NCBI GenBank assembly: GCA_965655095.1
Contig: OZ296649.1
Location: forward strand, 27,094,001-27,158,000
DNA from: Haplodiscus bocki
Taxonomy: Eukaryota
DNA: 64,000 bases
Direction: 5' to 3'
Shown: piece by piece, positions 2,993 through 36,279 of the stretch
Layout of the letters: the number at the start of each line of letters is the position of its first letter
How positions within the stretch are numbered: position 1 is the first letter of the stretch
The notes under the pieces: model-generated
Database searches by the model: none
Told to the model about the DNA's origin: nothing
What the model saw: only the letters and a program-made list of their open reading frames with translations
Translations under genes and position numbers: made by a program

Positions 2993-3000
2993 AAACACTT

Positions 3001-5439: not shown

Positions 5440-5694
5440 TTAAATGAAAGCCTGGGCAGAAATTCGACAACTTCTGAACTTATTTTCTCGAAGCACATTG
5501 GTTTTACCAGTAAAACAGTATAAATAGAAGGTTTTTAGAATTTCCATTCCAATAATATGGATATATACGATGCCGCGAAACCGAATGCCGGGTGAGTTGA
5601 CAAAAATTTCCTCCAGGCCCGGATTCGAACCTGTGCAGACGACGGGTTCGAAATCTTTCGCCAGACGCCTTATCCACCCGCCCACCGCTCACTC
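5440..5694 (-). mobile_element. tRNA(Ser/Leu-type)-derived SINE or tRNA pseudogene
   Basis: Minus strand has an A-box-like GTGGGCGGGTGGATAAGGCG and a perfect B box GGTTCGAATCC (5621-5631), with long variable-arm spacing. Acceptor and anticodon stems do not pair. An AT-rich body follows; the 3' end is uncertain. Confidence 0.6.
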
Positions 5695-7147: not shown

Positions 7148-7760
7148 ATGAACAAGAAAGATTTCATGACCAGCAGACTATTTATATCGTTGGTTAGTCC
7201 AGATGATTTTGAAAAGATTAAACTCCTAATGCAACGCTTGCGCCACCTACATTTTTGTACCCATCTATTGGCAAAACTTACTACTTCTATCTCTTTGTCC
7301 AATTATCACCGGATTGCACTTTGAAATGATTAAGAAACTAGAAACTGTCAACTTGTTTTTGATGATTCTTCCGAAGAAAAGTATCAGGAGAAAGAGTCTA
7401 TCAAGGTTACAGTTGCGGGTCGTCAAAAAAGCTCTTTCAATTTTTGTCAAACTTATTTTGTCCCACCAAAGGATTAGTCTCGAACCCTTGACCTAAGTAC
7501 AACTCATATTGCCTTGATCAAATGAACACGCGATGTTCGCCAGTTAGATTGTTTTGAGCGACAGCTGAATAAAGAGAACTTCAATAAAAGTTGTTACAAA
7601 AAGGCCACATCACAACCTCTTGGCCATTTCTCAATTGTCTTCGATCATTGGACAAGCGATTTTTCACGTTACCGTTCAATTGTTGTCGGTCATCACCCAA
7701 ATAACTTTTTTCCCTCATCGTTCACCAATGAAACGCTTTAAGCAAATGAGTGGGAAATCA
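7148..7760 (+). pseudogene. Polinton-type (A32/FtsK-like) packaging ATPase relic
   Basis: Across frameshifts: RLFISLVSPDDFEK (eroded Walker A), CQLVFDDSSEE (Walker B), VAGRQ, SRTLDLSTTHIALIK*TRDVRQL...KKATSQPLGHFSIVFD. Confidence 0.7.
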
Positions 7761-8689
7761 TTGCATTCACTAAAACATTGGCAAGGAAACAAGAAAAAGA
7801 ACCGACAACAATACGCATGATTGTTGCAAAAAGAGATAAAATTCCTTTGTGAATCGGCACCTAACTATAATAATGCTGACGTTTATTCAAAGCTGACAAA
7901 TTGATGAATTTCGTAAAGCATTTCAGAGTTTTCGCGCATCTACGACAGATACGCGGCGAAGGCATGCTTTGTCGTCAGTCAAAGGCATTGAGCTACTCCA
8001 TGGAAACAATCGCCTTTGCTTTTCTTAATTGTCACAATGACTGTAGAGAAGTTTGTTTGGATACAAAAAGAATTCTGTGGAATAAGATTAATAGCCAAAA
8101 GTATCAGAAAAAGTAGATCATCCAACTTTACCGCAAACAAATGCCCTCTGTTGCTCTTCTTCAACGACATTCTTCTACAGATAAAAAAACAGACGGAGAG
8201 GATGCAAAAACGAAAACACAAGACGTTGGAGAAGCAGCAGTTTCAAATAAAATGAGCGAAGTGTTTTGCCAGGTCTGTCAATGCTGCAATCTTTTGCGAT
8301 CGAAATGTCTAAACCGATGCAGGAAAATTTTCAGGAGAACCCATATAAGGTAATTGACAAGAAGGGTGTGCTGATGATTGGTGACTGTCCAACTTCACTT
8401 AAAGCAACAACTTTCCAATACATCCTGCAGCAAAACAGAAAACAGTTGGCCAATCCAGACTAGAAATTAATTTTAGAGAAACTTCACATTTTTCTCCAAC
8501 TAGTTGCAAACAGCAAGGCCAAGCAGATTGTCAAACCAAAACATGCCGAGACGAGAGTTTTGTCTCCACCAGAAACCACACTGTGGAAACCTACACCCAA
8601 AATGTCTCAGAAGGACGAACAGCAGCGTGGCGTAACTTCTGGAAACAAAAAAAGAACTTCGAAACAGAAAAAAGTAATCAAAAATTGAT

Positions 8690-9560
8690 GACAATAAAGA
8701 CCGCAGACAAATGTTCAGTGATCGAGAACCAGCTACACAACAAAATTTGAAAGGTCTACAGAAAGTTAGCACAGCCTCATGTGCCAAAATCGAGTCATAT
8801 CTCGGAGGAAAAATATACAAAAGATTTTTCAACAGTTCCGATGGAAATTTCCTCAAATCAAATTTTTTGCCCAGAACTTCAACGGAGTTGGTCGAAAGAT
8901 GTGGCCTACGTTGACAAACTGGCCAATTATTTTATTGGACTCAACTACTTGCTCGTTTCAGTCCATGTTTTGTCGCGTTATCTTGAGTGCAGCCAATGCC
9001 AAAAAAAGCGCTCATGATGCAGCTAAGGCATTGAGAAAAGTGAACGAGTGCAGTCGCAAAGTATGTGTGGTCCGATAGGCGAATAGATATCACGGAAAAT
9101 TTCAAAAATTTCCGTCACAAAAAGTGCACTGACACAAAGAAAACATTAGGTGAAAAGAAATTTGCATTGACTGAACTCAACTTGCGTACTTAAAATCATT
9201 ATATACAAACATTTGAAGAACAAATGGACCTAACATTACATATTAAGATTGTAATCTTTTGTCAAGATCATCAGTTCCTGATTTAACTGCGTTACTTGCG
9301 TAATGCCACACAAAATTACAAACCAGTACATTTAGAAACTCTTGTCTCTAGCTCCCGATTGGTTGACCAAAAATGTAAGCAATTCAAGATTCGCATTTGG
9401 TAATAGAGTTCTTAAACCCAAAGGAAAATTACCATTCAAAACAGGAAAGAACTAAACATTTCTAACGAAAGTTTGACATTCTCCGAAGTCGTCACGTTAA
9501 ACGATCCATCATAAAAGCTTGGAGACGAGATTGGGAGACTAACACGGAAAAACTCTGCGG
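8690..9560 (+). pseudogene. Polinton-type retroviral-like (rve) integrase relic
   Basis: WSKDVAYVDKLA...YLLVSVHVLSRYL, then VWSDR (second Asp), KKFALTELNLR (cf. AFAERNIR) and YKHLKNKWT, with frameshifts. Confidence 0.75.
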
Positions 9561-9594
9561 GCGCGAAACGAAGAATTCAACATTCACTGAGCCC

Positions 9595-10400
9595 ACAGTA
9601 TCAATGTTTTTTTACCCCGCAAATACAAAGGCTAATTCTGGCTAGTTAGTTCTTCATCCAATTCAACAAGAATGTGATTGAGGTGTTTCTTTGGCCAAAA
9701 TCATTTTCCTTTCCAGCGTTAAGAACATAAAAACAAACGAATGTTTTTTGTAAAGTTAAATTGTATTCAAAAATTTTTCCAAACCATAGTTTTTTGAATT
9801 TCAGGTATCACGCAAAAGCTGGAAAGGCGCTGCAGATGTCCTTTTTGGTGATTACAACAAAATGTAAGATATCTTGAGAGTAATTGAAAAGGGAACCCGT
9901 GTTATTTAACCAATTGAGTTGTGTTCAACCAGAATTAAAGAGCAAGTATCTCTTGTGGTTAAGGAAAAATATGATGTAAATTTCTAAAACCTCAGTATTC
10001 TACATCTGTTGGAGATCGAGGCGGATCCCAACAAGCACTGAAAAGGAACTTGTTTTGTGGGCAAGCCAGAAAGAAACAACACATTCCCAATGATCTCCCT
10101 CCAGATCCTAGAGCTGGTACAAACATTTAATAGCAAACACCAGATTCATTGAACAGAAACATGTTGCGGGCTCAAGTCACTTGTTGCGAATCTTTGATAA
10201 CCAAAGAGGGTGTCAAACGGTTTTCCATAAGTTGACTCAACCACATTTCATCAAATAATCTCCTAAATCCTTTTTTCAAAGCGGGTAATTCCATCACCAT
10301 TGAAGAATTCCAACCCCAACTTGTTACAGTACTGGTCTGACACTTCATTTTGTTTAATAACGCAAGTCTTGCATTGACAATGAAAGTCAAAAAGTCTTCC
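9595..10400 (+). pseudogene. Polinton minor capsid (penton-like) relic
   Basis: N-terminal FYPANTKANS...PIQQECD*GVSLAKIIF (cf. YP.NT...F...PI.L.G.W.VAL.EI.FP); C-terminal ...LALTMKVKK. Confidence 0.5.
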
Positions 10401-10449
10401 AAGTAGAACAAAAGTTCTCACAACAAGTCTTTTTACCTCGGTTCAATAG

Positions 10450-10750
10450 TCACACAAGACAAGAAGGCGTTGGTTTTGGTTCACTAGCAAGTTGTTGCTC
10501 GGACAGCTAAACCACGAAAAAAGTTTTTCTTCCTGGACTCGATTCAATTGGCAAAAAAACGTTTGCAGTGAGACTTCTAGAGATGGTTGAAACTGCATCA
10601 AAAAGAAAAGCAAGCAAAAAGGCTGCAAAATGCGAGTACGAAAAACTTCCATGAAGCAAGAAGTGGGATCAGCGAAAAGAAAACGCAGATTCCTCATATG
10701 CACAAACTTGTTTCGGACAAGTCGGTCAAATTCATTTTCAAGAATCAAAA
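10450..10750 (+). pseudogene. Polinton basic core-protein-like relic
   Basis: HTRQEGVGFGSLA (cf. RQ.G.GFG motif) followed by Lys-rich KRKASKKAAK; lies between the minor and major capsid relics. Confidence 0.5.
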
Positions 10751-10779
10751 ATTTGCCTAACTTGTTACATCTTTAAGCA

Positions 10780-12010
10780 TATCGCAGCTCAATCGATGTA
10801 ATCTGAAGACCCTTCTACTCATCACATATCACACACCACTTGAGTACAAAATTGGCCCTACTTTTGCTTCTAATGGACCAACACTGGAGTTCAAAATTGC
10901 AGAATGTCGAATCAGTTTTATTGATCTACAAGCCTTTTAGGTGGAAGTAAAATGTGAATTTACTAGACCAAGATGAAGAGAGTTGGCTAACGACGCTACA
11001 ATTTTTGCAAACAACAATTAATTTTTCCCTGATTTACACGCTCCTTTCTTTGTATCCTGAATGCAGTACAGTGGCGAAAAGAATAAAAATTTCATCTCCA
11101 AAAGAACTACCCACACACTGTTTTTATTGAAGCAAACTTGCCTAACAACAAGACGGCAAAAAACACTTGGTTGAAATCTCAGGAAAGCTCCATTAAATCG
11201 AGACCTAAAAACTTCACAATAGCAATTCAAAACAGCCAGAGTTGGAAACCATGAGTTCATAGGGGGTAACTTTTGTTGGAAACGTACGATCACTTGTTTT
11301 TTTGGTGACAAGCATCTCTTGAGTGTAGTTACTTTGCCAGTTGTTTGAAGAGGAACCCAGTATTCATCTTGATAGTCGACGATGATGCGAAAAATCTCAA
11401 AGTTGAAAAAATTTAAACAAATTCATATGTTCGCAGATTGATTGTTGCAGACAAAATTTACAACATCATCAAGACTACACTTATCACGATGCCAGCATTG
11501 TATCGTTAAAGTCAAACTCAAGCCAAAATTTTTGTAGTTTCAACAAATCTACAGTGCTCGGACCAAAAAAATGTTTCTGATATAGAGCTTATAAGAAAAA
11601 CCGTTTCTGTCTTGACAAACAATGCTCAAGTTATGGATGCTGAACAAACAAACCCATCTCACTGCAAAAAAAATGATTCGAACAAAATCACAATTTGTCG
11701 TAACCACTCCTAATTGCCGCTACAACTTTGATACCAACTTTGATGCATACAGAAAGATTTACTTGATTTCGTTGGAGGCTCCTGAGTTTGGGCATCATGG
11801 TCATGATATTCCTTGTCTCGAATATCCAAATCATTATCTGGTGGTGCTCAACCTTACCGCATTCGGCAGGCATCAAAGAAACACCATCATCCCAAACTGA
11901 CGAACGCTACAGTTTCAATCAGTTTACGCTATCCAGGACATACGCAAACAGTACGCAAAATTATTCCCCGGAAGGAAAAAACTTCAACGATTCAAACTGA
12001 TTCTGACTGA
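10780..12010 (+). pseudogene. Polinton major capsid protein relic
   Basis: YKIGPTFASNGPTLEFKI...SFIDLQAF*VEVKC; FFGDKHLLSVVTL; C-terminal GHHGHDIPCLEYPNHYLVVLNLT...PKLTNATVSISLRY. Confidence 0.7.
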
Positions 12011-14689
12011 CGAAATACACAAAAAACAATCTCGTTACAAAAATGTTATTCTGAAAAGGGATTGACGTAATTGTTTGGACGGGGCCTTTTGAAAAACACA
12101 GCCAATTAAAGTACAGTTTCTTTGGCGTTTATGCTGCTGACAGTCCTAGATTTGAAAACAATTAATTTTGTCATTTCAGGCCGAACTAACAGGCTCAGAA
12201 GTTATCGGCTACGAAAAAAGAAACAACTATTTGACAATCTCCTTGGTTTATCTTTAACGTTATCCAAAATATTTTGTGAGCGTTTTCCATATGCCGACTT
12301 CGGAGTATCTGAACTCATGAAAGGAGCATTGCGGAAACCATCCATTCTTTTTATGGACTCTTTTGTTTTTATTTTGCTCTACGTGATTCAGTCCGTACTA
12401 TTTCTCAGTCTCATACATCATTGAGTTACATTTGCCACTTTTCTCAAACATTTAACTCGAATAAATATTTAATTTTTACTTTGCCGACGAATCTTCTGAA
12501 GGAATTGAAAATGTTTTGGTAAAAACACCAGTTTAGAAACAAAGAAAAAAAATGAAAACGGATATAGATTAGAAACTTTGAGATTTTTTTTCAGACTGCA
12601 AGAAAAAGATAAAGTTTTTGCTCAGGTAGTAGGGGTCTGAGACATGTGTGAAAGTTACATACCTTTGTACATATTCACATTGCCATCATTGTCATAGACT
12701 CACTTGAGAGATGCGAATCAACCATTTTACTCTTTCCGTTTTGATTTTTTTCGATGCAGGTCGTTGACTTCAAATGGCGGCTGTTTTTGTGCTTGAATTT
12801 GTTTCGGTAGAATGTTTCCCTAGCAAGTTTTGTGGAAAGCGGTCATTTGAAGAAGATTTGTATAAAGAAACACATCTGGAAGGTCCAGTTTGAGCTTTGG
12901 TGAAAGGCACAACTGACACAAAAATGGACTTCCTTAAAATTGAGACTTGAGTTATTCCATAGTTCCGACAACAGAAGGAGTGACTATTGGTCTGAGTTAG
13001 ACGGGTCTTACAGTTGTTGACACAGCAGATTATGGTTTCTGATCATAATGAAAAGAAGGGACACATTATCAAAATCGACCCATTCAGGTGTGAAACTGAT
13101 GAAAGTAAAATCCGCGTTCAAACAAAACGGACCTTTTCATTGTCCAATATAAAACAGCTGCAGCTGCCAAAGCAAGTCTTCGATACCGCTAGAAATTGTG
13201 CTGAACCGACTTTTGATTGAAATTATTATACTTGGCCCAATTATAAAAAAGTGCCAGACAAAAAAATATCAGACAATTATCAATACCTGAGGTTCTGAAA
13301 CCAGTGAAATTCCAATTTGGGGTTTTTAATCAGTCATAACTGAGACTAAATCAGTCAGAATGAGGACATGTGACGTTTACAACCAAACTTTTGTCAATTA
13401 ATTGAGTTTGACAAAACACTGAAGAAATGTCCGCGTAGTTCCTCCCTACGCTCAGGTAATAGAAAGCACAAAATGCAATAAATTTGCACTCACGGTAGAC
13501 TTCATGACATATGAATTCAGCAAATGTTAAACCGAGATGGAAGTTTTGTGCAACTGTTGTGGACTAGGATATAACAACTAAGGGGAGTTCTACCAACATA
13601 TTGATAAAAAACACGATGTGCGTCTTCCAAAAGGTCTCAAGCGAGAACGAACACTGGCTATTGCATCAGCAATCAACGGTGCACTCCTCGTGTAGACTAT
13701 TTTTGGATAGATTGCAAAAGACTTCTTCCAAGTCATGACGGACACCGATTCTCAAATTGATAGCTTGGTATCGGAAAACGTAACTTTTACTTCTCCCAAG
13801 AGGCAGTTTTTGGCAAAAGCGGAGCTTTCACAGTCAACCAGGGAAGAACATATATCACTTTTTCTAAGATTAAACTTCCAGCCCGTGTATAAGTTCAGTA
13901 TCTCACAAACGAATTTTCTGGCAGTTGTAGACAAAATGTTCAACTTCACAGCCCTGGAAGTGGTTGGTTATTGGACAGCGTAGATGAGAATAGATTAAAC
14001 TTCCCTCACTCAACCACAAAAGAGGATAATGGTCTCCACCATCACCACCAATACTGGCTGCCTCACCGTTACTAATAAACATTCGTAACCGTCATGTCCA
14101 CAACTGTTTCCTTTAACGCTTCACTGCAGCAGGGAACTTGAAGGACGGACCATTAGTGTACGTTGCGAGCGGCAAATGAATGCGGAACTGACCGGAACCT
14201 AGCAAATACTCGAAACAAATCTGTTTACCAATTCAAGTGCTCTAAATATTTCACTTTTCGATGGATTTCGGTCAAATGCTTAGATTTGAAGGACTGAACC
14301 ATTGCCGGATATGTGTTTCCTGCTATATAGATAAAGAATTGACCCCTGAGAGTATCAAAAAACGCAGAAAATGACCTGGAAGTGGACTTAGTGCTAGTTA
14401 ACGATGGCAATGAGTATCAATATGTTCTAAATACAGACATCCTTAGACTTGTGGTCGTAGTTCAAAATACAGCAACATTTTTCGATAGGGTTTTGTGACG
14501 TAACTGTTTTCAAGTTTGCATGAAACAAGACATTTTTACCGTCATCGGGTTAGCTGAATGAACAGTGAGCACGCAATATCCAAACTGCCAAAGCGCAATA
14601 AAAATCGAATTCGAAAGCATGCCATAAAGTTGATTTGCTCCGTTAGGGTCGCCTTCCGCCGGACTACTACAACTCCAGAGACTTTTAAT

Positions 14690-17600
14690 GACTTTTCTTA
14701 ATTGACACCTCTCCAGAAAAAAATTCATGATCAAACACTGCAACTTCAGAGAAAAGAAAAAAGGATACTAAAATTCATGAATCGGATAAAGCGGAATTTT
14801 TGAAAAAAACTTTCATGGGAAAATTGTGTCCTAAATGTTGACCAAAAAAGGCAACTTGAGGATTTTCTGGTTGAATACCACGATGTGTTTGCCAAACAAT
14901 GCTTCGATGTGGGTTATAACATAGAGCTCAGATTCAGACGAACACCTGAACACCCACTTCCGGTGTATGTTCGAGGTCCACCAGCTCCATTCCACTTACG
15001 TAATGAAGTTTTGATTGAACTTGCATTGTTACAAAACTTTGACATTATAACAACGCTCTCACATTCCAAAGACTGTAGTCGGATACTTGTTTATCACAAA
15101 TCATCAGGTAAACTGAAAGTTCTTATTGACTTGCGTCACGTGAACCATCTCCTACGCCTTGAATTTTTAAATAGTAACTTTCCCATTTCAAATAAGACCG
15201 ATGCCACAAATCACTTCGCCGAAAAAACTTCGTTTTGTAAACTACATTGTTGACAAGCATACCATTGTGTTCAGATGACAGATGATCTTCAGTTCTTTTT
15301 TTGGCATTTAACTTCGCTTCTCGAACATTCGCGAAGGCTAAACAATTGTTTAGCTGAAGGCTTGAATAAATCTTTCACGGGATTTAGTTCCTTCGTCAAG
15401 CACTACCTTGACCCCTGCCTACAAGCGTTTGTTTGTACGCAATTCATGGGCGATATTGCTGCCGGGGCGCATGTTTTTGATGAAATGGTTCCAGCACTAC
15501 GCGAAACATTTGATTGTTTGAGAGATTCGGGTCTGAAGCTTTCAGCGCATAAATGTGAATTTGGCACGACGAAAATTGTTTACTTAGGTAGTACAATTAC
15601 TCCAAAGTAATATCACCCAAAATTGCAAAAATTGTGAAATTTTGGGCGAAATCAGAATGCCAAATACAGTAAAACAAGTCAAACGCCTAATTGGCTTCGT
15701 GCATTTCTTCCGAAATTTTATTCCTAATCTTAGACAGAAACTTTGGCCATTCTACAAACTTTTACGCAAAGAAAACGTTTTTACATTTACGAACGATCAT
15801 CAGGAAAAATTTGACACAATGAAAGATGACTTAACACGTGCTACAGATTCAACGTTACGTTTAGCTAAACCAGGCCTCCCCTCCAGTATATCATCCTTTG
15901 TGGTGCTAGTTTCCATGGCCATGCATTTGTGTTAATGATTGAAGATTACTTCACTGATCAAAAAAGTAAAACAAAGAAAACTTACGCCCCAGTATCTTTT
16001 GGTTTGAGAAATTTTACAAGAACTTAATTGGTTTTTTCAGTGTATTATAAAGAGTTTCTAGCTCCGTTTTTTGCCTTAGACCATTTTTTACACTTCATCT
16101 GGTCGCCACAAAAGCTGTTCTGGTTTTAACTGGCCATAGAATGTTGACGCATTCTTTTCAGTCTAAAAACATTCATCCATTCCAATGGAATTGCTTCGAT
16201 AGAGTTTTGTCTTTCAATATTTCACTTGCGCTTATTCCAGGGAAAGCAAACCCTGCTGCTTAATTTTTTTCACGGATGCAAACGGATCCCAACTTAACCT
16301 TACAGATAAAACTTATGGATCACGTCCCCATTCGTGAAATTGAAATAGAAACGGAAGCAAAAGCACCGAAAGTCTATTTGTCGAACATTAATGAAGTTGC
16401 GCCATTTTCTGAGGAACTACACCTTGTGGTCGATGAGCAATTCATCACTCAATTGAAGGCACACGGCCTCTAAGGCCAATTTATAGCAAAACAACCTCGC
16501 GACGACCCGGATAATCGTTTAACGGGCTTTTTCTTTCTTTCATCACTTCCGCAAGTAAACCTGATTGAAACTAACGAGTTTGAAGACTTTTTGAATGATT
16601 TACCGAATCGAACACAACCCTTTGACCTAATGCAAAAACAACAAAACGATGAAGTTATCCAAGAGGTGGTTTCATGGAAATATCGAGGTAACCCCGATGA
16701 ATCACCAAAATTACCGTCAGCATTACGGAAGTATCGAAAACAGTTTAACGGCCTAGTTGTTGAAAATAATTTTTTTCATCATTCATTCTATGATGACTGT
16801 GGTAAAGTAAAATACAAACAGTTCTGTTTACCAAAAACGCTTCGGCGTGAAGTTGTCTTCCGCCTCCATATTTCAAAAACTACCACACATTTTGGCATTG
16901 CCAAAACGTTGGAAGAGTCTTGAAAAAGATCCTAGTTTCCCAATTTCAACGATTTTTTCTATTTTTTTTTCAGTTAAAAACTGCCTTCTTCTTTTCAACT
17001 TAAACGCGTACCGTCAAAGTTTTTGAAAACACCTATACAGTTAGTATCGTCCCCACATTCGTATCCTGGCGAAACATTTCAAATTGATCTTGTTGGACCG
17101 TTGAAATCACCAGGTCACCGTTATGGGTTGACAGCTATTATTATATTTATAAAATGTTTGTTCGCTGTCCCTTTGACAAATGTCAGAGCAGACACAAGTG
17201 CGCGTGAACTTACGTCAATCTTTATCCCACATAGTTCAAAGTTATTTGCCAAACCAATTCTTTTCGACCTAGGATCTTCATTTGTTTCAGAACTTTTGCA
17301 TGAATTTCAACTAGACCATGCCAGTTTAGAACATCCACAAACTGTGGGTGTTGTTGAACGCTCTCATAGCGCTTTTAAACGTATTCTCAAATTGAATACT
17401 AATGAACAATGGAACGATCGATTCAAATACGTACAGTTAGCCACTCTTATCCACAACACTTCATATCACTCAGCATTTGGCTGTAGTCCTACAGTTTTTT
17501 TCCACGGGCGCCAACCAAAAAAACCATTAGACCTCAGATTCAAAAACACTTTAATTGAATGCTTTTCTCCGAATAGTGAATACGTTTTTGCCCTACAAGA

Positions 17601-17940
17601 TGCAATGAACAAGAAATTTAAGTAAACAAAAATCAAATTAACCGAAACGTACAATAAACACAGAGCTTATTATGATTGCAAAGCGTAAGCTAAGCTGTTA
17701 GCTCTTTCCACCAACTGTCTTTTACCTAATCCAAAACTGATGACACAGTCTGATTTTGCGAGTAAATCGTTGCTATTCTGGCTTCCCCTTTATCGTATTG
17801 AGAAAAGTGTGACAAACTCTAATTACTTCATTCGCAAAATTAGCACGAAGTACACAGAATGTGTCCACAGAATTCGCTCGAGACCTGTGACCCCACAAGG
17901 TCGCCTTGAAGATCTAACGGTCATTAATTTCAAAAAAATT
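14690..17940 (+). pseudogene. Gypsy pol: RT, RNase H, integrase
   Basis: GKLKVLIDLRHVN, FCKLHC, AEGL, TQFMGDI (eroded Y/FxDD), KCEFG...YLG, VKRLIGFVHFFRNFIP; RH YAPVSFG; INT QIDLVGPL / ILFDLGSSFVS / GVVERSH (D,D,E). Confidence 0.9.
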
Positions 17941-19039
17941 CCAAAAAGACCCATCGTTGGACCACTATCGTGATCAACCAACGTTGCTTGATGAAAGTTT
18001 TCCTTTTTTGTTGGAACCTCCCACCACAGTGGTTGCAACACAAAATGTGACGGGAGATCCACCACCTGTCACTGTTAGTCTTCGTCTTCCGATCAGTCCA
18101 ACGCCCGTACCAGTCGGACTGGCAGCGGCACCGACTCCAATACCTCTACCTGCTGTGGCAGCGGCCCCAGCTTTGGTGGCCCCTGACACCGCAGATGTTG
18201 AAGCACCCGAGCCGCAAGTTTTAGAGCGACCTTACCATCCTACTCAGGATGTTCGATGTTCTGCTAGCTCAGATGATTCGTCTATCAATGATCCTTCATT
18301 ACACGCTCGAACGCTACGGGACACTCCTACTTACATGAAATCAGGTGGGCAAAAACTACCAGCCGAGGCAATAACTACTGACCGGAAATCTCCACTGCGC
18401 CCTCTTTCACATTTGCAAAGTTCCCATGCAATTAGCAGCGCTGGTTCTGAAAGTTCTTTGAATGACTCCCCAAGAAACATTTCTAATGCATTTGAAGTTG
18501 AGCGAGGACCACTCCTGGAACCTCAATCTTCGGAGTTCATGCCCCCTGTTGATCAAGGCAACATAACAGTTTTCCCCAATCGTCTTAAATACAAGGCAGA
18601 TGGTGACAACTCAGTTGATATTACGCTTGAAAAATCCATGTACCTCCAAAATTCTTGTACTACTGTTACACCTGAAAGGCAACAGACGCAATCTTCTAGT
18701 ACAGCCTTGCCAAAATCTTATGATCTCCGCCCAGGCTACCACCTCGGGATTATCATGAGAAAGTGAATCAAAAGAAAATGACGCCTAAAATGCGCTGTAT
18801 TCCGATTAGAGAGTCGGCTGCCTCAGCAAATCAGCTGACCCAGAGTCAAAAACGAGACATAATTATTGATTCGTGTCAACGAACACGAAATGTTCAAAGT
18901 ATTTCTGATGTTCATGAAAAACCCATACATGCATAGTACTTACACCAATTTTAGACATTCGGCGCAGTCCACGCCACCATGGTATTCAGAACGCCAAAAG
19001 GAAGTAAAAAACGCAGTCACTGAATCAAATGTATACCCA

Positions 19040-19440
19040 AAATTTTGTTTTTCGCAGTCAAATATTCTCAGAGCCACTACACGCATAGCACACTGTGTTC
19101 CTTTGGATTTTGCTATGGGCAGAAGCTTAGCCTGCTGCTATCCTGAGCTTCAAGATCTGAGAAACTTAACAATTAATAACTTTCCAGCGGGCTCTTTAGT
19201 CACTGACTTTGGTGAACGACATCAACGTTTTATTTACAATTAGGTGAGAAAAGGACAACTTTTTCGCAAAACTCCCTGTTTTAAGGCAACACCTGACGCG
19301 CCATGATATTCATGAATTAGCAATTCCTAAACTTGGTGGTGGCTATGACCAAATACATTGGGCAGCATTTTTTTCGATTTTGTTCAAACTTCTTTTTCTG
19401 GTTCAAACCTTAAGATAACGATATTTCAACCTTCACGATA
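19040..19440 (+). pseudogene. TARG1/OARD1/Poa1p-like macrodomain at the pol C-terminus
   Basis: SNILRATTRIAHCVPLDFAMGRSLA...GSLV...RFIYN*VRK...LRQHLTRHDIHELAIPKLGGGYDQIHW...ILFKL. Matches the TARG1 pattern LAHCIS.D..MG.GIA...RYIYYLITK...L.MPRIGCGLD.L.W. Confidence 0.75.
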
Positions 19441-20826
19441 ACCTAACATGCCTCCTTAATGTTTGATTTGTAGACTTAGTTTGATTTGGCTGAAAAACTA
19501 CACAAACCTGATTTTGAGCTTCACAGGGAAACTCTCAAGGTCAAAAGGTCATAGCGACCTATCCTTGTGACAAATACTTTACAATTTGCTCTATAACATG
19601 AATATATGATCCGATAGTGGATCCGAAAATTTTTTTTCGCGTCCATCGACCACCTAATGAGTTTTCTAAAAATTCACTAAGATGACTCACTTTTCATGTC
19701 AAAAACCGCAGATTTTACAATAACTCTTGTGTAGACTCGTCCCTAGTGCGCCCCACTACTTGTCACTTCTGTATAAACCCTAGACAGTTCTCATACTTTA
19801 CCTTAGTCTCTGAAATTGAATGAATAATGATGCCAAATGGTGACTGAGTCTTTTTCACTTAACCTTGACCCCTGAGTTCCTTTTGATTACGACCATCGCG
19901 GCCAGGCACATTCAAACTCTTCATTTTTTGCCTCATGCGGTTTTTTATATGACTTGTCTTCCTTATAGTAGAAATATAGATTTCCCAGGTCAAAGCATCA
20001 TCATTTCAACACTTCTTACTCCTCAATGAGCCAATTGATCAGTGGCTCACAGTGAAAGGCTTTGTATTTTGCGGAAAGTACCTATTGCACAAGGAACGTC
20101 TCACCTCTCTTCATTCCTTTTCCTTCTGTTGATGCATATCGTATCCAACCGCACCCATTTTCGTTTTGTCAGAAGACCAAAAGATCGTATCCTAAGTACT
20201 CTGCGGTTCCCAACATCTAAATGGAATCCTGAAGTTTTACCTTGTCTGACCTTTGCTTTTGCCCGTATTCATCTTACTTACCCACGGCTCCCCGATTGAT
20301 GTTTTGGAATTACGCACTGCCTCAATCTCCCACGGCTTTATTGTATATCTTAATTGTTAGAGACATTCATCCTGAAATGTCTTTACCCTCATTTCGTATT
20401 TTCCCTAGATCACTGGCATTTTTTCCTTATCTATAGACACGTTTTCACTGTTGTCTGTCGTGTACGACTCTGCCTATAGTTTGGTATAGCGTTGTGGACT
20501 TGCCGCTGTTTTCCCCACCAACAGGTAGTAAATCGTTGAAAACCAAGACAAACGACTTCCCAGTGCCAACTCAGATTTACAGCCGACCTCTGGGGGCTCT
20601 CCAAGACCAACGATTTGGCTTCCAGTATAATCGTCCGGCACACGTACATGAGTCAGTCCTAGTTTACTACACAATCGTATCCGTGTCATTTTGGAGTCAC
20701 ATATTGATTGTTGCCATTGATGACCTTGATGGTCCAGCCAAAAACACTGAAGACATTTATATTTATACCTGAAAATCTTTCAAATACACCTTTCTACTCT
20801 CTTTATCAAACACATCGTACCAATAC

Positions 20827-21491
20827 TCACAACTTGCAGGCTCTTTCCTGTCCTACAAAGATCGGTGCTATCACGAAACCTAGATCACTCAGGGCTTTTC
20901 GTAAGACTTTTGTCGTCCTCACGTGTTTCTTCCCTTCGTATTGTATGGGTTCCAATACATTCTCCAGTTGCTCCATTGTCGGAACCTCAGACTCCTTCCA
21001 TAGCAGCCCACCATCTCCGCAGTTACTGTATTCACTAATGTGATATTGTCGGTAAATCATCTCTTCAGCTCTGAGGATCAGATTGTCAAGTGATTTTTCA
21101 GTCACCATTTTGCAAATGGCCTTGTACATCAAAGGTTCCTTGATTTCTAAAAGCGAAAAAACGAGAAAACCAAAAACATTCTTGTTGACCAATATCCAAC
21201 TTTCCTTCGTTGCTCCATTTTTCGGTCATACCTTTTTTCGTTTAGTTTATCATTCCAATTTTGATACCTAACCTCAACGCCATTTCGTTTTTGTTTTCTT
21301 ACATCGGACAGTGCACTTGCTAATTCAATCAAATTTAGTTCAGAACATAATGTTCCAACACCTATGTTTCTTTTCATACAAACTAACGTTTGTGCCAGAT
21401 AAATAACACACGCCTTTTTGTCTACATCAACGGTTTTACAAGATTTGGCTCCTTTTTCACTTTGCTGACACTTTTTGATCACACCTGTCAA
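20827..21491 (-). pseudogene. Antisense accessory ORF of unknown function inside the Gypsy element (two overlapping frames, probably one frameshifted gene)
   Basis: 114 aa and 121 aa overlapping minus-strand ORFs with protein-like composition, between the macrodomain and env. Confidence 0.4.
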
Positions 21492-22801
21492 TTTTGTTTG
21501 CAGGCAAGTTGCCTCATTTCATTTCTCCTTCTTCACGACAATACGACTTCTTTAACTATCTCATCAATTATGCTCATTGAATTGGAATTCGCAATCCATT
21601 TTCAATGGATATCTATGCACAATGCTCTTAGTTTAAATGTCATCCGTATCAAATACGATTCAGAAGGCAACCTGTTCATGACGCCTATCAATGGGGATCT
21701 TCTCACACTCTACGTGGTGCATGGTAAGTGGTTCGGGTTCACCAATCTTGTACACTCAAAAAGCTGTACAACCCCTAATTTTGACGGCATTAGAGGAATT
21801 ATCAACTTCCACAAAGTCAAACTGAAGTTGAAAAAAGTCTTCAAAAACCTTGAATAACTTTCCTGGCTTGAGTAAAGCTTTACACAATCTTCTTCGGATC
21901 GTTTTAATTAAAACCTATCGCCTATTCAAATCTTCAATCTAGTTTTTAGGCCTTATTAACGCATACCGAATCTCTACTCTAGTTTTTTTTGTCTACGTTT
22001 GAAGAGTACGCGGTTTTGTTGGCAAGTGTTCAACTACAAGTAATTTAAGAATCATAGAACAACAAAAAAAAACAAATGAGTTTTCCAGTTTTCGGTACGT
22101 GGAACTAATTAATTTGTGACTGCTCCATTCTGCTCTCTTTTCAACTAGTTTTCAATCTATCATATGTCACGTACGAAACGGTAAACGCAAAACGCAATAA
22201 CGTAATACAGGTGACAATCTATTCCAGCAATTGTTCCAAAAACTTTTGACACAATACTGGCCACTGACATTTCTTTCGTTGCATGCTCTGTTTGAATTGG
22301 CCCGCAAATAACAGGTTTCTTTTTTGTTCAGATTAATTTGCCAGGCCGACTCCGGATAGCGGAGCCATTCTGGCAGCATAACACTTCATGCTGCCTCCGG
22401 GCCTTTAACTCACAGACTATCTCCACTCCAATTATTGTCACCAAAATGACACATGCAAGGTGGCAAAATTTCATTTTGAGCTGAAAAACTTGAAATCAAC
22501 TTTAAGTTTTGTCAGAACGTTGAAAAAATGCCTTGAAGCTTCCATGGGCCCACTTTGATTTTTTTTGCAAACATTCGAGTCGAACATTTCTTCAAAAGCT
22601 ATGATCTTTTCAAAAAATGTGACATCCTGTTTAAATGTCACGGTATCTTTGATCAAATACTTATATCAACGACCTTTGGTAACAACGCTGAACCGGCGAC
22701 TTTTAGAAATTTTCGACGGTTCGTAAAATTTTTTGCTGACATTTTGGGTCCTTCTTTTCAATTCGAACTTGAAGTCGCTTCTGAATTATAAACTTTTGAT
22801 C

Positions 22802-25166
22802 CTGAAAACAAGCTCTTTTTTTCTTACTCCTCACTCTTGCTTCTGTTCAAACTGATTGGGCTTCTACCATCGAAGCCGCAACGAATGCCGACGATCTTTT
22901 TGAAAAAGGAATTTTATTCAATGAAGTCAGTAAAAACTTACTGACAGAAAAGTTTATTCGCGTAGTTTTCCTTGTACCATTTCCGACATAGGACTTTACA
23001 ATGAAGCTGGACGTTGAACGAATGATTCAACAACCTACCAGTATGAAGAAAACTCCTCTGCTTTTTTGCCCATTGAATTTATCAAGCCAATTTGCGACGA
23101 ACACTTCTGGACTCAATGTCCATTGGATGTTACATCAGATTGATAATGAAATTTCACAGCGCAACCAGATTTTGCGCTTATTCGTAACGAAACCACTATG
23201 TTCCTAAAGCAGCCTCAGCCTACTAAGTCTACTCGCCAACGTCGCGGCGCTGGTGCCGGTGTCGGCCTAGCTGCCCTTGCCACTGTTGGACTTCCCGGTG
23301 GGGGACTTTATGTAGGTGGTTCCGCTTCTTGTGGTTTGAAAGGGATTTTTGGTAATTGCCAAGAAAAATCCAAAACAAATGCGGGAAATGGCCGCTGCTT
23401 CGCCGATTTTCAAAATTCTCGTTCTGATTATGTTACGTAATTTATGACGAACACCGATGAAAAACTCTTTCTTGTCGAAAATAAACTAGCGGCTCTTAAC
23501 GCTATTCAATCCGAAATGGCCGCGACCCAAGAGAAGAATTGGGTCATCATTCAAGAGCAATTGGCTAATTAAGAACAATTTTTTCATATTTTACGTGACT
23601 GTGATCAACTTTTATTCGGTAACCAGCAACTTAACTTCAATTTTGATACCGTTTCTTCTTTACTTTATATGATTCATGCCAAGGTGGGAAATTACTGTTC
23701 TGCTTTGTTTGCTTTTCGCATGGACATTTTAAATTCGATTCCTGTTTTGCTCAAAGGACTTTTGCCGATATCGCTTATTACTATGGAGTGGCTCCTAGCG
23801 ATCATGGATGATGTCAGTCTTCGGAAACCAAAAGCTGAAGATCGCTTCACTGTTGCTCTACCGGCGAGTGATCTATTGTCCTATTTTGATTCTCGCTTGC
23901 TCGTTGACGCTATTACGGTATCAGAAGGACTCCTATTGACAATTAACATACCGCCTGCTTCGCAGCAAACTGTTTTTACACCTTTTGAAACAACACGTAT
24001 TCCGATGCTTTTTCCAGACGATCCTCAGACGGCTCTTACGTGGAACATCGAAGCTCCAAATTTAGCTCTTTCTGAAAACAAACTTGAATCGTCCGTCTTA
24101 TCTGAGGAACAGTTTGAGCACCGCCTCGGTTCGTCGAAGTACCGAATTTGCTCTGATGCTTTCCAACGCAGATAGGACACCCTTATTGCATTGGAGCAAT
24201 GTAGTTTTTTTAATCCTATTGATGCACTAGCTGTTTTTGAAACTACTGCTATCACCTTACCTAGTATTGAACAAGCTACGAATCATGGTTTTGCTAACTG
24301 GCTTATTACATCTGCAAATGCTGATTTCACGTTCCGTGGATCACCATCATTAGCAACATCATCCTCTTCAAGATCATTTGCTGGTTGTCATATTTGCAAC
24401 ATTACCTTTGCTTGTGGAATGCAAATTCACACGGGACATATAATCACAAGATAAGATCTTGCTTCATGTTCGACCATTCCGGCAATTAAATTGCAATTAT
24501 CTTTGCCGAATCTGCTTGAATCGTTGATCATGCAAGTCCCCCCGTTAGACGAACTACCCTTATATACATCGAAAGCAATATCAGGAGTGACTCTTGGAAA
24601 AGCGGTGCGAAAGAACCTTAGAAGCAGTGTAACCGTCCGCCAAGTCAATCAATTGGTGGAAATAAATCGTCCGTTCGCACAGGACATGAAACTTTTGAAA
24701 CCCTCACTGACCCGTGAATTTAATCAATATGTACCTTTCAAGATGTCTTGTAACTTGACAGTGATGGTTGGGTTTCATCGTCTCAACAGTGGTACACCTT
24801 GTTTTCTTGTATATTTATCACAGGTTTAATCTTAGAGACTGTTTTTTACCAAAATTGTTGACAAAAAATAGCACTATTAGACCGGTGCTTCAAGTTCCTG
24901 AGGAATGTCCACTCAACCTTTCACAAAAACCTTCAAGACGTTTTCTCCTGATTAGCCATAATCCAAAGTAAAAATCAGAGACACCTCCGAAAGTACCTCA
25001 AAAAACCTCTATTCAAGCCGCGTTATCTTTATCTGCTGCCTCCGAACCCTCTTATGCTAAAACACCACGGTTCGTTCTAACTGACACGACGCCCAAACAG
25101 GAAAATGTTTATGCATCAATTGATAAAAACCGTAACACCGAAACGATGACCATATGGTTGACTTGA
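22802..25166 (+). pseudogene. Envelope-like glycoprotein (class I fusion protein architecture)
   Basis: Signal-like KQALFFLLLTLASVQT; furin site RQRR (23234-23245) directly followed by GAGAGVGLAALATVGLPGGGLYVGG; heptad-like LFLVENKLAALNAIQSEMAATQEKNW; Cys-rich ectodomain; TM-like VMVGFIVSTVVHLVFLYIY; cytoplasmic tail. Several stops and frameshifts. Confidence 0.8.
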
Positions 25167-25868
25167 AGTCTCATGTTCACCATAATAAATGAAGTCATTG
25201 AAACCAAAACATGCATTGTTATCAAAATTTTTTGCTGTAACAAGTAAGTTAGAAATGTAGTAAATTTCTGGCTAAAAAAACGCCGCAAGACGAGATGAAT
25301 CGTCACTCTGGGACTGGCACAACAACTAAGTCACAAGATGATCACGTGACACGTTTTGGGCAATTGTAAAATTTGTTCTGGCTTTTTCTTCAACTTTTCT
25401 ATCTACTTATCTGGGAACGTTTCGGTTTCATTCTGTCTTTCTGTGAACTCATTTCCATTCATGGATATCACTGGATTCTTCCAATCGGATAATGGTCCTT
25501 TTTCCACAGGCCGGAAGAGTTTGAATAGAGGAAGTGTTTTACACTGAAACAGTGCCTCAGTCCGGGACAGATGAAATTGAAACTTAGATTCAGAATTTAT
25601 TGACAATTTTATAAACCTCAAACCTTTTTAACATTTTAAACTAACCCTATTATTGATTCATAATGTTTATTTCAAATTGATTGAGCTGACCACAAAAAAA
25701 ACTAAGAAGAGAAATAATTCAATTCTTTGAAAGGTGCTTCCAACTAACCAAAAAAAAATTGTGATCCACGCATCCAAGAATCTTGTCCGTTCACCAATAA
25801 GCTGCTGTCACCAATAGTGTAAAACAAAACTTAAACCTGAAAAAGAAGTTTACGACTTGAGTCGCTAG

Positions 25869-28586
25869 AAATTTCAGCATGAGGCAAAGTCTATGTTCAC
25901 AACAACATAACCACGGTGGTTTTCACTTGCGCACGCAACTCCAGGCTTTACAATCGGATGGTGAGTGGGCGCTGTTGGTATTCGTGTCAAGAGTCTAGTG
26001 CAGGTTTATCTTTCGCTATGTGGAGAGCCTCCGCGGTTAACAGCCATTTTTGGTTGTTGCTCGCCGCGAGTACATCAACTGTCAAATCTTGATTTCCGTT
26101 GCAGCCTTGAAGGTGTTCACCAACCGACGCCGATGTCTTTTGTTGCTCAGAGAGTCTTGTTGTAAGATGTCGTACCGTTTGGCCGACATAGCAGGAATTG
26201 CATCCCAAACACAATTTTTGCAAACAACCTTACTTCTGAGTTCCTTCGGAATCGGGGCCTCGAGAGTTGGCTAGGCTGTCTTAAGTTTCCTTGTCGTGAA
26301 AATAACTGAGCACGTAGCTTTTTTCTGAGTTTGGCGGAAGATTGATAAGATATTCGGCCTCGAATCACAAATAATTTTCTATTTGGACGCGCTTTTCCTT
26401 GGTGTTGCAATTTGGTGTCTGGCTGTGGCCTAGCCTCATCCAATAATATCTTCTCGATCGTGTTTCTGATAAGAGGGGAATAGAAGGATGGAGGATATTG
26501 GTTGGTTTCAATGCATCTGGTGAGCTTGTTTACAGCACTGTCAAATTTGGCCCAATTCGACGTAGTGTGGTGGATACGGTGGATTGCGCCCGGTGTATTA
26601 CGGTGGTACGATGTTTCGTTGTATATTTCGTGGGAGCACAAGCCTATTAGGATAGGTATACAACTGTGTCAGAGGGCTTTGTGTACAAGGATGTGCTCAA
26701 CTTGTTTTGGCTGCGGGTAACCAGCAAGTCGAGAAAAGCAAGTTCGATGTTTATATCGTGCTCGACTGTGACTGCAAGGTTCGGATGGAGCGCGTTAGCT
26801 GTTTTGAACAATTTCTCAACATCGTCGAGTTTTACTGACCGTATTGTGTCGGCCACAGAACGTGCAAGTAGCTTCGCTGGCTCAGAAGGAGGTTCGATCG
26901 TGTTCGAGTGGGGTGCTGTTTGCGACCATCCGCACGTCCATTCGCCTTCTTTTAATTTTTGAAGTTGAAATCGAGCGGCTGGTGCATTGGTGGTGAAACC
27001 AAACACGGCAACTGCAACATTGAACGGAATTACCGCAAAGTTTCCGCTGCATGCCCCGCATGGAGAAAGCACACCTGCCACGACTGGAAAAACTGTCCCG
27101 GGCCTATCACTCGGCATGAAATTTCTTCTTCTGCAGTTACATTTTCGAGCTGTTTCATCCTAATGTTTGCAAGGTAACTAGCAAGTTTTGACCCCATCGC
27201 TAATCCGTCCATTTGCCTGTACCAGGTTTCACGACAAAGTATGTCTACGTTTCTGACCGCTACGGACATGAGTTCAATAAATTTTTCCTTCGAGAAGTCA
27301 ACGGTGGTGGCCCTGGCGTACACCAAATCAGCAGTCATGCTTATGGATTCCTCAACCGGTACGCTTGTGTACAGCGATTTTACATCTAACGATATCAGCA
27401 CATCATCAACTTCCAGTGTTGTGGACACTAGCTCATCCGTAATCTTGCTTCAGGACGTTTCTATCTGTGCCGCAAGTAATTTCTACAACCATTCCGCAAG
27501 AGCATTAGTATGTGGCTCATCAATTTTTTTAGCCTGTTGTCGAACTTCTCTTCAATCTTGATTGTAATGGGCTTTCTCGTGGTGCCTGAAAGAGAAGTGT
27601 TTGGCTTTACAAACTACCGGTGAGTAAGTACTCTGTCACATCTCTTTAAAAAGTCATCCTCTGTCATAATGCAGTATCCGATGCCCTTATCAAGAGGTAC
27701 CGCATTCGAGCCATTATTCTTCTTGTAAGCCACTGTTTTGGTGAAGGCACGATCCGAGGACTGCCGTTCTGCCAATTGGACAAACCAGTTGGCAATATCA
27801 TTGAGATCGTTACATACGTCAGCATCCGTGTTCTGAGACAGGAAGTCCATGTCAGCTAAGATGTTCATATCATCAAGTTTGTCTCGAATAGGGTGTTTGG
27901 GACCGAACGACATTAGGTCCAATGCAGATTGAGGAGGGTTGATGTCACACATTATTCTCACAGTGCTCTTGATGTTCCGTAGCGGTTTTTCCTGTTTCGT
28001 AGCACGCTCCTGGAGTTTCTTCTGATGTCGTGAGGAAACCTCACCATTCGTAACACGACAGCGGTAGCGGATGAACAGGATGAAAGTTGGCAACAACAAA
28101 ACTGGACAGTTTTCCTTGAGTGCACTCCGAACGTCGTTAAGTCGGTTGGTTGCATGCTCAAATATTCTGCAAGCCTTGCCCAATTCAGCCTTCAAGAGGC
28201 GTCTCTGGAAGTCCTGCACAATAGCGGGCTCGAAACAGCTGTTTTCGGGGATCTGGAATCACAAATTTTTAGCTCACATTGTTGATTAAACACTTTTCCC
28301 GGAAAAGCGATGAGCAGCTCAGTAATTTGAGTCTTCTCGATGCACTTTCGGTATGCCAAGAAAAACTTCCACGCATTGTATAGGAGCAATGTCTTTTTCA
28401 GAAGTCGAAAGGCAAGGAATATTGACGGATGTTTACTTGAAGAACAATGTCAATGAAATTTTTTTGAGTTTACACTCATCATCAGCAAAACAGTCTGAAA
28501 ATACCCAAAAAAATCAAGCATGAAGTTAGTCAAATCAGTAGGGAAAAATTTTAGCATGAGGTGAAGTCTATGCTCACAACAACATA
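25869..28586 (-). mobile_element. Penelope-like element (RT plus C-terminal GIY-YIG endonuclease) bounded by a 41-bp direct repeat
   Basis: LMSFGPKHPIRD, VPLDKGIGYCIM, LISLDVKSLYTSVP, YRQMDGLAMGSKLASYLANI, ARSVADTI (eroded RYVDD), LAFLDLLV, LYTKPSDT, NQYPPSF; EN CLGCNSCYVGQTVRHLTTRLSE...EALHIAKDKPALD. 25869-25909 and 28546-28586 are 37/41 identical. Confidence 0.9.
26926..27063 (-). other. PHD finger inserted within the Penelope RT
   Basis: With two frameshifts reads PCGAC..-GNSVQCCSCRVWFHHQCTS..-LKEGEWTCG: C4HC3 spacing with the conserved W-x-C. Confidence 0.7.
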
Positions 28587-30410: not shown

Positions 30411-30696
30411 AATGTTCTGGAAGGATACAATGGCACTGTGTTTGCGTATGGACAGACAGGGTGTGGGAAGTCGTTCTCCATGCAAGGCATTGTGGACCCG
30501 GCCACTCAGAGAGGCGTCATCCCTCGGGCGTTTGATCACATTTTCGAGGCTGTCTCAGTAACCAAAGACAAGAAGTATCTCGTGCACGCGTCCTACTTGG
30601 AGATTTACAACGAACAAGTGCGAGATCTCTTGTCTAAAGATGCTAAAAGACAGCTTGACTTGAAGGAACATCCTGACAAAGGTGTCTATGTCCATG
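30411..30696 (+). CDS. KIF17: KIF17-like exon 2 (P-loop)
   Basis: ttctag acceptor; NVLEGYNGTVFAYGQTGCGKSFSMQG...SYLEIYNEQVRDLL...LKEHPDKGVYVH; phase-1 donor gttagt. Confidence 0.95.
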
Positions 30697-35640: not shown

Positions 35641-35732
35641 TTTGAGACTTTGAGTATCGTTCTTCAGTGTATCCCTGAAAAATCATGCTGACGCCATTGC
35701 TGGTGGACATATTCATTAGCATTTGAGATTTT

Positions 35733-36242: not shown

Positions 36243-36279
36243 GAAGCCATATAAATCTACCAATTTTAAAACCACGTGG

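What the first reader, a model, noticed from the sequence alone, without database searches (positions are those of the whole stretch)
13700..25700. Complex retrovirus-like Gypsy: pol + macrodomain + accessory ORFs + env in one ~12 kb unit
Seen: colinear RT-RH-INT, Pro-rich linker, macrodomain, ~3.3 kb of unexplained ORFs, and an env-like gene, all similarly decayed and with no obvious insertion junctions. Known: env capture is established for insect errantiviruses and some nematode elements, and macrodomains counter ADP-ribosylation-based defence in RNA viruses. Inference: a lineage of potentially infectious invertebrate Gypsy 'retroviruses' combining an entry protein, a putative counter-defence enzyme and accessory genes. 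I do not know of this combination having been described. This is the best candidate for a new system in the window.
Basis: partly seen in the sequence, partly recalled or inferred. Interest (0 to 1): 0.82.

Follow-up and report, generated by a model that had tools for sequence, protein, structure and literature searches.

The report
Envelope retrotransposon carrying ADP-ribose eraser
A broken old copy of a retrovirus-like jumping gene in an animal genome carries a viral-type membrane-fusion gene and, on the end of its polymerase protein, an enzyme of a kind that strips ADP-ribose marks; the first is common, the pairing seems undescribed, and the claimed extra genes are unproven.

Summary
Mostly real but over-read. 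Window 14,672-19,440 is a decayed Ty3/gypsy-type pol (RT-RH-INT-Pro/Ser linker) ending in a TARG1/OARD1/DarG-type macrodomain. Window 22,818-~25,140 is a decayed class I F-type env. In relatives the macrodomain is the C-terminal domain of Pol (P0109; P0117, 1,817 aa, 61 members). It keeps TARG1's catalytic Lys (22 of 23 readable) while the linker beside it no longer aligns. Pol and env carry similar damage (2-8 breaks/kb). 4 of 27 macrodomain hits share a contig length with one of 89 env hits (0.6-1.1 expected): indirect support for one element. Not confirmed: accessory ORFs (plus strand of the 3.4-kb spacer is no more open than chance; an antisense ORF is only a lead), and gag, protease and LTRs (none found; homology starts at 14,672, not 13,700). 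The copy lies in an intron of a host kinesin gene. Env-F Ty3/gypsy elements are known across animals, and macrodomain ORFs are reported in fish retroviruses. A Pol-fused TARG1-type domain in an env-bearing Ty3/gypsy did not turn up in ten literature searches. Verdict: new variant of a known kind.

The parts
14672..15662 (+). Reverse transcriptase, decayed (3 stops, 4 frameshifts); 5' limit of recognisable element
   Evidence: Pfam PF00078 E 2e-10; 56% identical to P0117; nothing upstream matches P0117's N-terminus
15657..16650 (+). RNase H and bridge region, decayed
   Evidence: Pfam PF17919/PF17917; 77% identical to P0109
16648..17959 (+). Integrase (H2C2 zinc-binding part, core, C-terminal module), decayed
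   Evidence: Pfam PF17921; 76% identical to P0109, which carries rve E 4e-10
17954..19033 (+). Pro/Ser-rich linker of Pol
   Evidence: 68% identical to P0092; does not align between subfamilies
19040..19440 (+). TARG1/OARD1/DarG-type macrodomain, C-terminal domain of Pol; decayed (1 stop, 2 frameshifts); residues matching TARG1 Lys84 and Asp125 still present
   Evidence: PDB C6orf130 E 6e-20; DarG E 4e-16
19450..22815 (.). 3.4-kb pol-env spacer, C/T-rich on +; coding status unresolved; at least 20,470-20,938 has a relative elsewhere
   Evidence: (P0121)
22818..25140 (+). F-type (class I fusion) env, decayed (5 stops, 4 frameshifts): signal peptide, basic RxRR cleavage site at 23,234-23,245, Gly/Ala-rich fusion peptide, long helices, transmembrane anchor near 24,770-24,820, cytoplasmic tail
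   Evidence: (P0070 Baculo_F E 4e-7); motif labels read by eye from the translation
25141..25844 (+). Probable 3' untranslated or partial LTR region, not delimited; followed by a Penelope-like insertion from 25,845
   Evidence: skew fades at 25.5 kb; no partner repeat upstream and no purine run of 11 or more before TG; direct repeat D7. Assignment is inference

Best explanation
One old, 5'-truncated insertion of an env-F-bearing Ty3/gypsy-type LTR retrotransposon (an 'errantivirus' in the operational sense of PMC13524379), lying in sense inside a ~26-kb intron of a host kinesin gene. This copy is dead. SHOWN: intact relatives make one Pol polyprotein RT-RH-INT-linker-macrodomain, with a protease-like and a dUTPase-like region in front (read by eye in P0117). 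The macrodomain is TARG1/DarG-type and has been kept while its linker drifted. Env is a class I F fusogen. INFERRED: Pol is packaged and cleaved, so the macrodomain, at the integrase end where chromoviruses carry a chromodomain, travels with the particle and pre-integration complex. There it most likely removes ADP-ribose from the element's RNA/cDNA ends or from proteins at the integration site, undoing PARP marking that would stall reverse transcription or integration (about 0.5, given one element). A binding-only targeting role or a general counter-immune role is less likely. Env is made from its own mRNA, probably from a promoter or splice acceptor in the largely non-coding spacer as in Oikopleura Tor4b, and lets particles pass from soma to germline as in Drosophila gypsy (by analogy only).
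For: Pol-macro fusion in single ORFs: P0109 (RH-INT-macro, 1,092 aa) and P0117 (1,817 aa, 61 members). Constraint: P0117 against the window's subfamily is 65% identical in INT and 45% in macro (E 6e-40), with no significant linker alignment (best E 3.5). Catalytic Lys kept in 22 of 23 and Asp in 16 of 16 relatives where the motif could be read, out of 30 examined. K84 is catalytic in TARG1, which reverses DNA ADP-ribosylation (PMC8501950, passages); TARG1 also cleans DNA/RNA termini (PMC11088682, passages). Env: model of P0001 (pLDDT 66) matches RSV/henipavirus/PIV5 F (best E 2e-6) and baculovirus F and invertebrate-virus glycoproteins (best E 6e-21). One unit: same strand, similar damage and 68-77% identity to closest relatives, continuous skew. 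4 of 27 macro hits share a contig length (40-183 kb) with an env hit, all four env partners in the window's own subfamily (55 of 89 hits); 0.56-1.13 expected from the same-contig rate within each list, P 0.003-0.03. Tor4b precedent for a pol-env space with an internal env promoter (PMC4402516, passages).
Against: No gag, protease, LTR, PBS, clear PPT or TSD in the window, so the unit is not bounded. Contig sharing shows neither adjacency nor orientation, and 23 of 27 macro hits show no shared length; under an assumed 200-Mb assembly 4 of 27 is not significant (P 0.26). The contigs of P0117, P0118 and P0119 are not among the env contig lengths. No enzyme, expression or infectivity data. The pol-env gap (3.4 kb) is far longer than the 1-kb prefilter of the published survey. 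The minus strand of the spacer is more open than chance, which a purely non-coding spacer does not explain.
Confidence: 0.7

Rival explanations
1. One reading: a complex retrovirus-like element whose spacer encodes real accessory proteins, in sense or as a decayed antisense ORF at about 20.0-21.9 kb.
For: Minus strand 20,000-21,900: three ORFs of 101-132 aa against 0.5 expected (2 of 100 simulations) and path cost 9.5 against 14.9/kb (0 of 100); minus-strand codon score above all 20 shuffles. Part of the spacer has a relative elsewhere (P0121). Extra ORFs between pol and env are known (PMC6431247, PMC5408684, passages). The minus strand was not covered by the large protein search.
Against: Plus strand not above null. 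1 of 4 control strand-tiles also reached 0 of 100, and both strands of one of the four control tiles beat their shuffles. Spacer ORFs on both strands have background codon and amino-acid scores. No significant Pfam, NCBIfam, PHROG or PDB match; Atlas best score 0.79, chance level; single-sequence fold pLDDT 36. A profile of the plus frames found 3 proteins among 1.84 billion, 2 of them the window's own ORFs, though it gave only about 0.8 bit per identical residue.
Confidence: 0.25
2. Two or more separate elements side by side: a macrodomain-bearing Gypsy pol remnant and an unrelated env-bearing remnant, with the spacer a nested or intervening repeat.
For: The intron is crowded with nested repeats. 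No LTR pair bounds the unit. No record seen here holds pol and env together. 23 of 27 macro hits show no shared contig length with env.
Against: Correct order and strand, matching damage and divergence, continuous skew, no internal repeat boundary found, excess contig sharing on short contigs.
Confidence: 0.12
3. One element, but the macrodomain is a reader rather than an eraser: it tethers integrase to ADP-ribosylated chromatin (damage or repair sites), as chromodomains tether chromoviruses.
For: Position at the C-terminus of integrase in P0109, P0117 and P0118; recruitment of chromatin readers by TEs is recurrent (10.1101/2021.11.30.470311, passages).
Against: Catalytic Lys and Asp positions are conserved across subfamilies. 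In P0119, a distant Gypsy (27-28% identical in RT and INT), the same kind of domain sits between RH and INT, so the terminal position is not required.
Confidence: 0.2

Closest known systems
F-type 'ancient errantiviruses' (env-carrying Ty3/gypsy of non-insect animals; Chary and Hayashi, PMC13524379)
   Same: Ty3/gypsy-type pol followed by an F-type env with signal peptide, furin-like site, fusion peptide and TM anchor; multi-copy with intact relatives.
   Different: Pol ends in a TARG1-type macrodomain ('macro' and 'ADP-ribos' occur 0 times in that paper's main text; no macrodomain label or motif hit in its supplements, whose long cells are cut and which lack full POL sequences). The pol-env gap is 3.4 kb, beyond the 1-kb and 10-kb prefilters of that survey.
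Tor4b elements of Oikopleura (PMC4402516)
   Same: Ty3/gypsy with env and a systematic space between pol and env, where env mRNA starts at an internal promoter.
   Different: No macrodomain mentioned (0 hits); phylogenetic relation to this element not tested.
Bdelloid rotifer LTR retrotransposons TelKA/Juno/Vesta (PMC5408684)
   Same: dUTPase-type region between protease and RT; paramyxovirus-like F env in TelKA; capture of enzymatic extra ORFs.
   Different: Their extra enzymes (GDSL esterase, DEDDy exonuclease) are separate ORF3s; no macrodomain mentioned (0 hits).
Epsilon-like fish endogenous retroviruses with macro domain ORFs (PMC4977317 citing Basta et al. 2009; original not held)
   Same: A retrovirus-type retroelement carrying a macrodomain.
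   Different: Retroviridae, not Ty3/gypsy; described as an additional ORF rather than a Pol domain; macrodomain subtype not checked.
TARG1/OARD1/C6orf130 and DarG ADP-ribosylhydrolases
   Same: Sequence similarity (E 6e-20 and 4e-16) and catalytic positions.
   Different: Fused to a retrotransposon Pol; activity untested.

Membership tests
Ty3/gypsy LTR retrotransposon (Metaviridae) | pol domain order RT-RH-INT with H2C2/DDE integrase | tested here: met
Ty3/gypsy LTR retrotransposon (Metaviridae) | gag and aspartic protease upstream of RT | tested here: not met
   Not detected in this copy at 11,500-14,670. A protease-like motif is visible by eye in relative P0117; no gag relative was obtained. 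This copy is therefore filed as a remnant, not as a complete member.
Ty3/gypsy LTR retrotransposon (Metaviridae) | flanking LTR pair, PBS, PPT, TSD | tested here: not met
   No LTR pair and no clear PPT in the window; other genomic copies could not be read.
Ty3/gypsy LTR retrotransposon (Metaviridae) | RT phylogeny within Ty3/gypsy and clade assignment | not testable with these tools
   No reference RT set was available. The RT active-site motif of P0117 reads F-M-D-D rather than Y-x-D-D.
F-type errantivirus (operational) | env with signal peptide, furin site, fusion peptide, TM anchor and class I F fold | tested here: met
F-type errantivirus (operational) | gag-pol-env in one LTR-bounded element in several copies | tested here: inconclusive
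   pol-env colinear here; 4 of 27 shared contig lengths; contig-level look-up unavailable
F-type errantivirus (operational) | infectious cell-to-cell transfer | not testable with these tools
   Shown only for Drosophila elements according to PMC13524379 (Discussion).
TARG1/OARD1/DarG-type macrodomain | sequence homology and catalytic Lys84/Asp125 positions | tested here: met
   K84 from PMC8501950; the D125 label is recalled and placed by counting in the alignment
TARG1/OARD1/DarG-type macrodomain | ADP-ribosylhydrolase activity | not testable with these tools
   needs an assay
'Complex retrovirus' organisation | conserved accessory ORFs between pol and env | tested here: inconclusive
   Plus strand not met; minus strand a weak lead with no identity.

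The most novel reading that the evidence does not exclude
A lineage of env-F Ty3/gypsy elements with a long pol-env gap, missed by published screens, that packages an active TARG1-type ADP-ribosylhydrolase to undo a host PARP defence aimed at retrotransposon nucleic acid, and also encodes an unidentified antisense accessory protein. The recurrence of this domain at a second Pol position in a distant Gypsy (P0119) would then mark ADP-ribosylation as an unrecognised anti-retrotransposon system in invertebrates.
Probability: 0.15. Interest if true: 0.78.

Novelty: new variant of a known kind. Interest (0 to 1): 0.45.

Why it matters
If the domain is an active hydrolase, it is direct evidence that ADP-ribosylation acts on LTR retrotransposon replication in invertebrates. 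TARG1's physiological role is called enigmatic in PMC8501950 (passages), and an intact 61-member Pol family (P0117) gives a small, assayable test domain. Two Pol positions in two distant Gypsy groups suggest repeated capture. The long pol-env gap also shows a class of env-carrying elements that the published pan-animal screen was set to miss. Env in an invertebrate Gypsy is not itself news.

Tried and rejected
LTR pair: repeat finder, self-BLAST and a permissive BLAST of the 3' flanks against 1-14,700 gave no credible pair (best E 0.03). Protease or gag at 13,500-14,680: a six-residue identity with P0117 near 13,900 looked suggestive, but frameshift-aware scores equal the null (54 of 100 simulations reach it); rejected. 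P-loop motif on the minus strand near 20,500: lies in a 41-aa ORF with no family match; treated as chance. tRNA pseudouridine synthase TruB match to minus 20,038-20,355: one PDB chain at E 0.33, then 0.055, no Pfam support, negative codon score; rejected. P0117 residues 214-278 matching env at E 5e-4 with composition statistics off: chance. Influenza HA2 matches to the env profile (E >= 0.17): not significant. Codon-model Viterbi: too weak, since control tiles also passed. Atlas search of the 156-aa plus ORF and single-sequence fold of the 132-aa minus ORF: uninformative. Rfam over 11-29 kb: 0 matches. Cluster-member look-up could not be made. Basta 2009 and Sharifi 2013 were not held. The host organism was not identified.
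Full report
Setting. The window is animal-like, repeat-rich DNA (about 38% GC). Pfam finds consecutive pieces of one kinesin motor at about 4,460 (profile 1-69), 30,411 (69-165), 45,607 (162-242) and 46,287 (244-319) (8 of 98 sequences had any family). The finding therefore lies in sense inside a ~26-kb intron. The host was not identified.

Pol. RT, RNase H and the integrase zinc-binding part are found by Pfam in frames read with X at stops. A search with the macrodomain region among longer proteins gave 27 hits of 176 candidates. P0109 holds RH-INT-linker-macro in one ORF. A second search with an intact macrodomain gave 4 hits of 285 candidates. P0117 (1,817 aa, 61 members) runs from a protease-like motif through a dUTPase-like stretch (both read by eye; labels recalled) to RT, RH, INT, linker and macro, and is 47% identical to the window. 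P0118 has the same layout. P0119 is a distant Gypsy (27% in RT, 28% in INT) with the domain between RH and INT. Homology in the window begins at 14,672. P0117 residues 1-321 find nothing upstream, and a mixed profile that included the three plus frames of 11,500-14,903 found there only the window's own ORF. The copy looks 5'-truncated, although the only protease-bearing probe is distant.

Macrodomain. P0102 matches human C6orf130/TARG1 structures at E 6e-20, and the next macrodomain class only at 6e-4 (8 sequences at E<=1). NCBIfam gives DarG (E 4e-16). The Atlas gives OARD1-like and Macro clusters at 0.95. The Lys matching TARG1 K84 is kept in 22 of 23 and the Asp matching D125 in 16 of 16 relatives where my pattern could read the motif; of 30 examined, 7 lacked the first match and 14 were not counted for the second. 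Both residues survive in the window. Between subfamilies INT is 65% and macro 45% identical, while the linker does not align. That is the pattern of a domain kept by selection. TARG1 removes ADP-ribose from Glu/Asp, from thymidine and from DNA/RNA termini (PMC8501950 and PMC11088682, passages).

Env. 89 homologs among 8,000 scored candidates, 34-82% identical, in several multi-member clusters (P0001 102 members, P0013 82, P0014 36). All were unnamed. P0070 matches Baculo_F (E 4e-7); 1 of 10 env relatives scanned did. A model of natural P0001 from 20 sequences (pLDDT 66, pTM 0.52) matches RSV, Hendra, Nipah and PIV5 F (128 matches at E<=0.001; TM-scores only 0.2-0.3) and baculovirus F and invertebrate-virus glycoproteins. 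The window copy aligns over 742 residues at 76% identity with 5 stops and 4 frameshifts.

One unit? For: order, strand, damage of 2-8 breaks/kb in all six parts, 68-77% identity to closest relatives (RT 56%, against a distant one), and continuous C>G skew. Contig context was not available, so I compared contig lengths: 4 of 27 macro hits equal an env-hit length (40, 96, 118, 183 kb), all with env of the window's subfamily (55 of 89). Within the two lists only 1-2 of 4,267 pairs share a contig, giving 0.56-1.13 expected (P 0.003-0.03). With assumed assembly sizes P runs from 0.26 (200 Mb) to 0.002 (1 Gb). This shows co-location, not adjacency. Against: no LTRs, PBS, PPT or TSD.

Spacer. On + it is no more open than composition-matched simulations, unlike pol and env. 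No ORF on either strand has an above-background codon or amino-acid score, against 86 background ORFs, and none has a significant family, structure or Atlas match. The plus-frame profile search returned 3 proteins: 2 are the window's own ORFs, and P0121 is a relative of 20,470-20,938 matching across two frames at 52-68%. That shows the DNA is repeated, not that it codes. Sensitivity was limited (a 97-aa identical ORF scored 78 bits). The minus strand at 20.0-21.9 kb is more open than chance (0 of 100), but 1 of 4 control strand-tiles was too, so an antisense ORF is a lead only. Tor4b elements have a pol-env space holding an env promoter (PMC4402516, passages), which is the simplest model.

Mechanism. 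Shown: architecture, domain type, conservation, fold. Inferred: packaging of the domain with Pol, removal of ADP-ribose from element nucleic acid or integration-site proteins (about 0.5), or tethering (about 0.2); env expression from the spacer; soma-to-germline transfer by analogy with Drosophila (PMC13524379, Discussion).

Literature seen. PMC13524379: abstract, Results parts 1-4 of 5, Methods part 1 of 3, Discussion part 1 of 2, term searches of main text and 7 supplements; long cells are cut and the authors' sequence repository was out of reach, so macrodomains among their 1,512 elements are not excluded. Passages only: PMC4977317, 10.1101/2021.11.30.470311 (26), PMC4695847, PMC8501950, PMC12859917, PMC6431247, PMC7729036, PMC5408684, PMC4402516, PMC11088682. 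Listing only: PMC11963269 (plant Retand elements). Ten full-text searches: macro domain+retrotransposon+gypsy; errantivirus+env+metazoa; macrodomain+retrotransposon+LTR; TARG1+retrotransposon; Appr-1+transposable element+reverse transcriptase; TARG1/macrodomain/evolution/retroelement/transposon/insect; LTR retrotransposon/ADP-ribose/additional domain/Repbase; macrodomain/endogenous retrovirus/fish/pol; macro domain/transposable element/ORF1/integrase; antisense ORF+gypsy+env+retrotransposon. None of the listed titles, abstract starts or passages read described a Pol-fused macrodomain in Ty3/gypsy. For the broad searches only the top 20-25 of up to thousands were listed, and the library lacks most subscription journals and Repbase Reports. 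From recall, with no call behind it: automatic domain annotation often shows Poa1p-like macrodomains in animal Gypsy polyproteins, so the fusion may be common but unremarked.

Verdict. Observation partly confirmed; interpretation partly supported. A decayed remnant that works like an F-type errantivirus, with a conserved TARG1-type Pol domain as its distinguishing trait. New variant of a known kind; interest 0.45.

Noticed in passing
window 4,460-4,660; 30,411-30,698; 45,607-45,882; 46,287-46,535; 48,230-48,646 (+): Exons of a host kinesin gene (motor domain, then coiled coil) with introns of about 26 and 15 kb filled with repeats.
   Followed up: partly
window 25,845-28,586 (-): Decayed retroelement with RT (Pfam RVT_1 E 7e-4) between 65-nt direct repeats; looks Penelope-like by recalled motifs; inserted just 3' of env.
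   Followed up: partly
window ~34,800-42,300 (-), integrase pieces at 39,327-40,147: A second, distant Gypsy remnant (31-39% identical to P0109/P0117 integrase) with a Pro/Ser/Thr-rich tail; no macrodomain or env match. A 139-bp inverted repeat pair (39,567-39,705 and 40,424-40,556, 92%) brackets part of its integrase.
   Followed up: partly
P0119 (unnamed, 1,189 aa, 22 members): A distant Gypsy Pol with a TARG1-type macrodomain between RNase H and integrase, suggesting an independent capture or relocation.
   Followed up: partly
P0117 RT active site; window ~15,440-15,460: RT motif reads F-M-D-D instead of Y-x-D-D in this family; the window copy is decayed there.
   Followed up: no
window 13,711-13,983 (+): 90-aa ORF with the second-highest protein-like amino-acid score of 86 background ORFs but no family match and no significant match to P0117; origin unexplained.
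   Followed up: partly
window 20,000-21,900 (-): Three ORFs of 101-132 aa and fewer stops than chance on the antisense strand of the spacer; unidentified.
   Followed up: partly
window ~3,000-3,850 and ~35,740-36,240: 9-bp tandem array whose flanks recur at 35.7-36.2 kb (71-80% identical): a dispersed repeat family.
   Followed up: no
window 37,540-37,938 (+): ORF with a Cys-x2-Cys...His pattern resembling a zinc finger (read by eye); no Pfam match.
   Followed up: no
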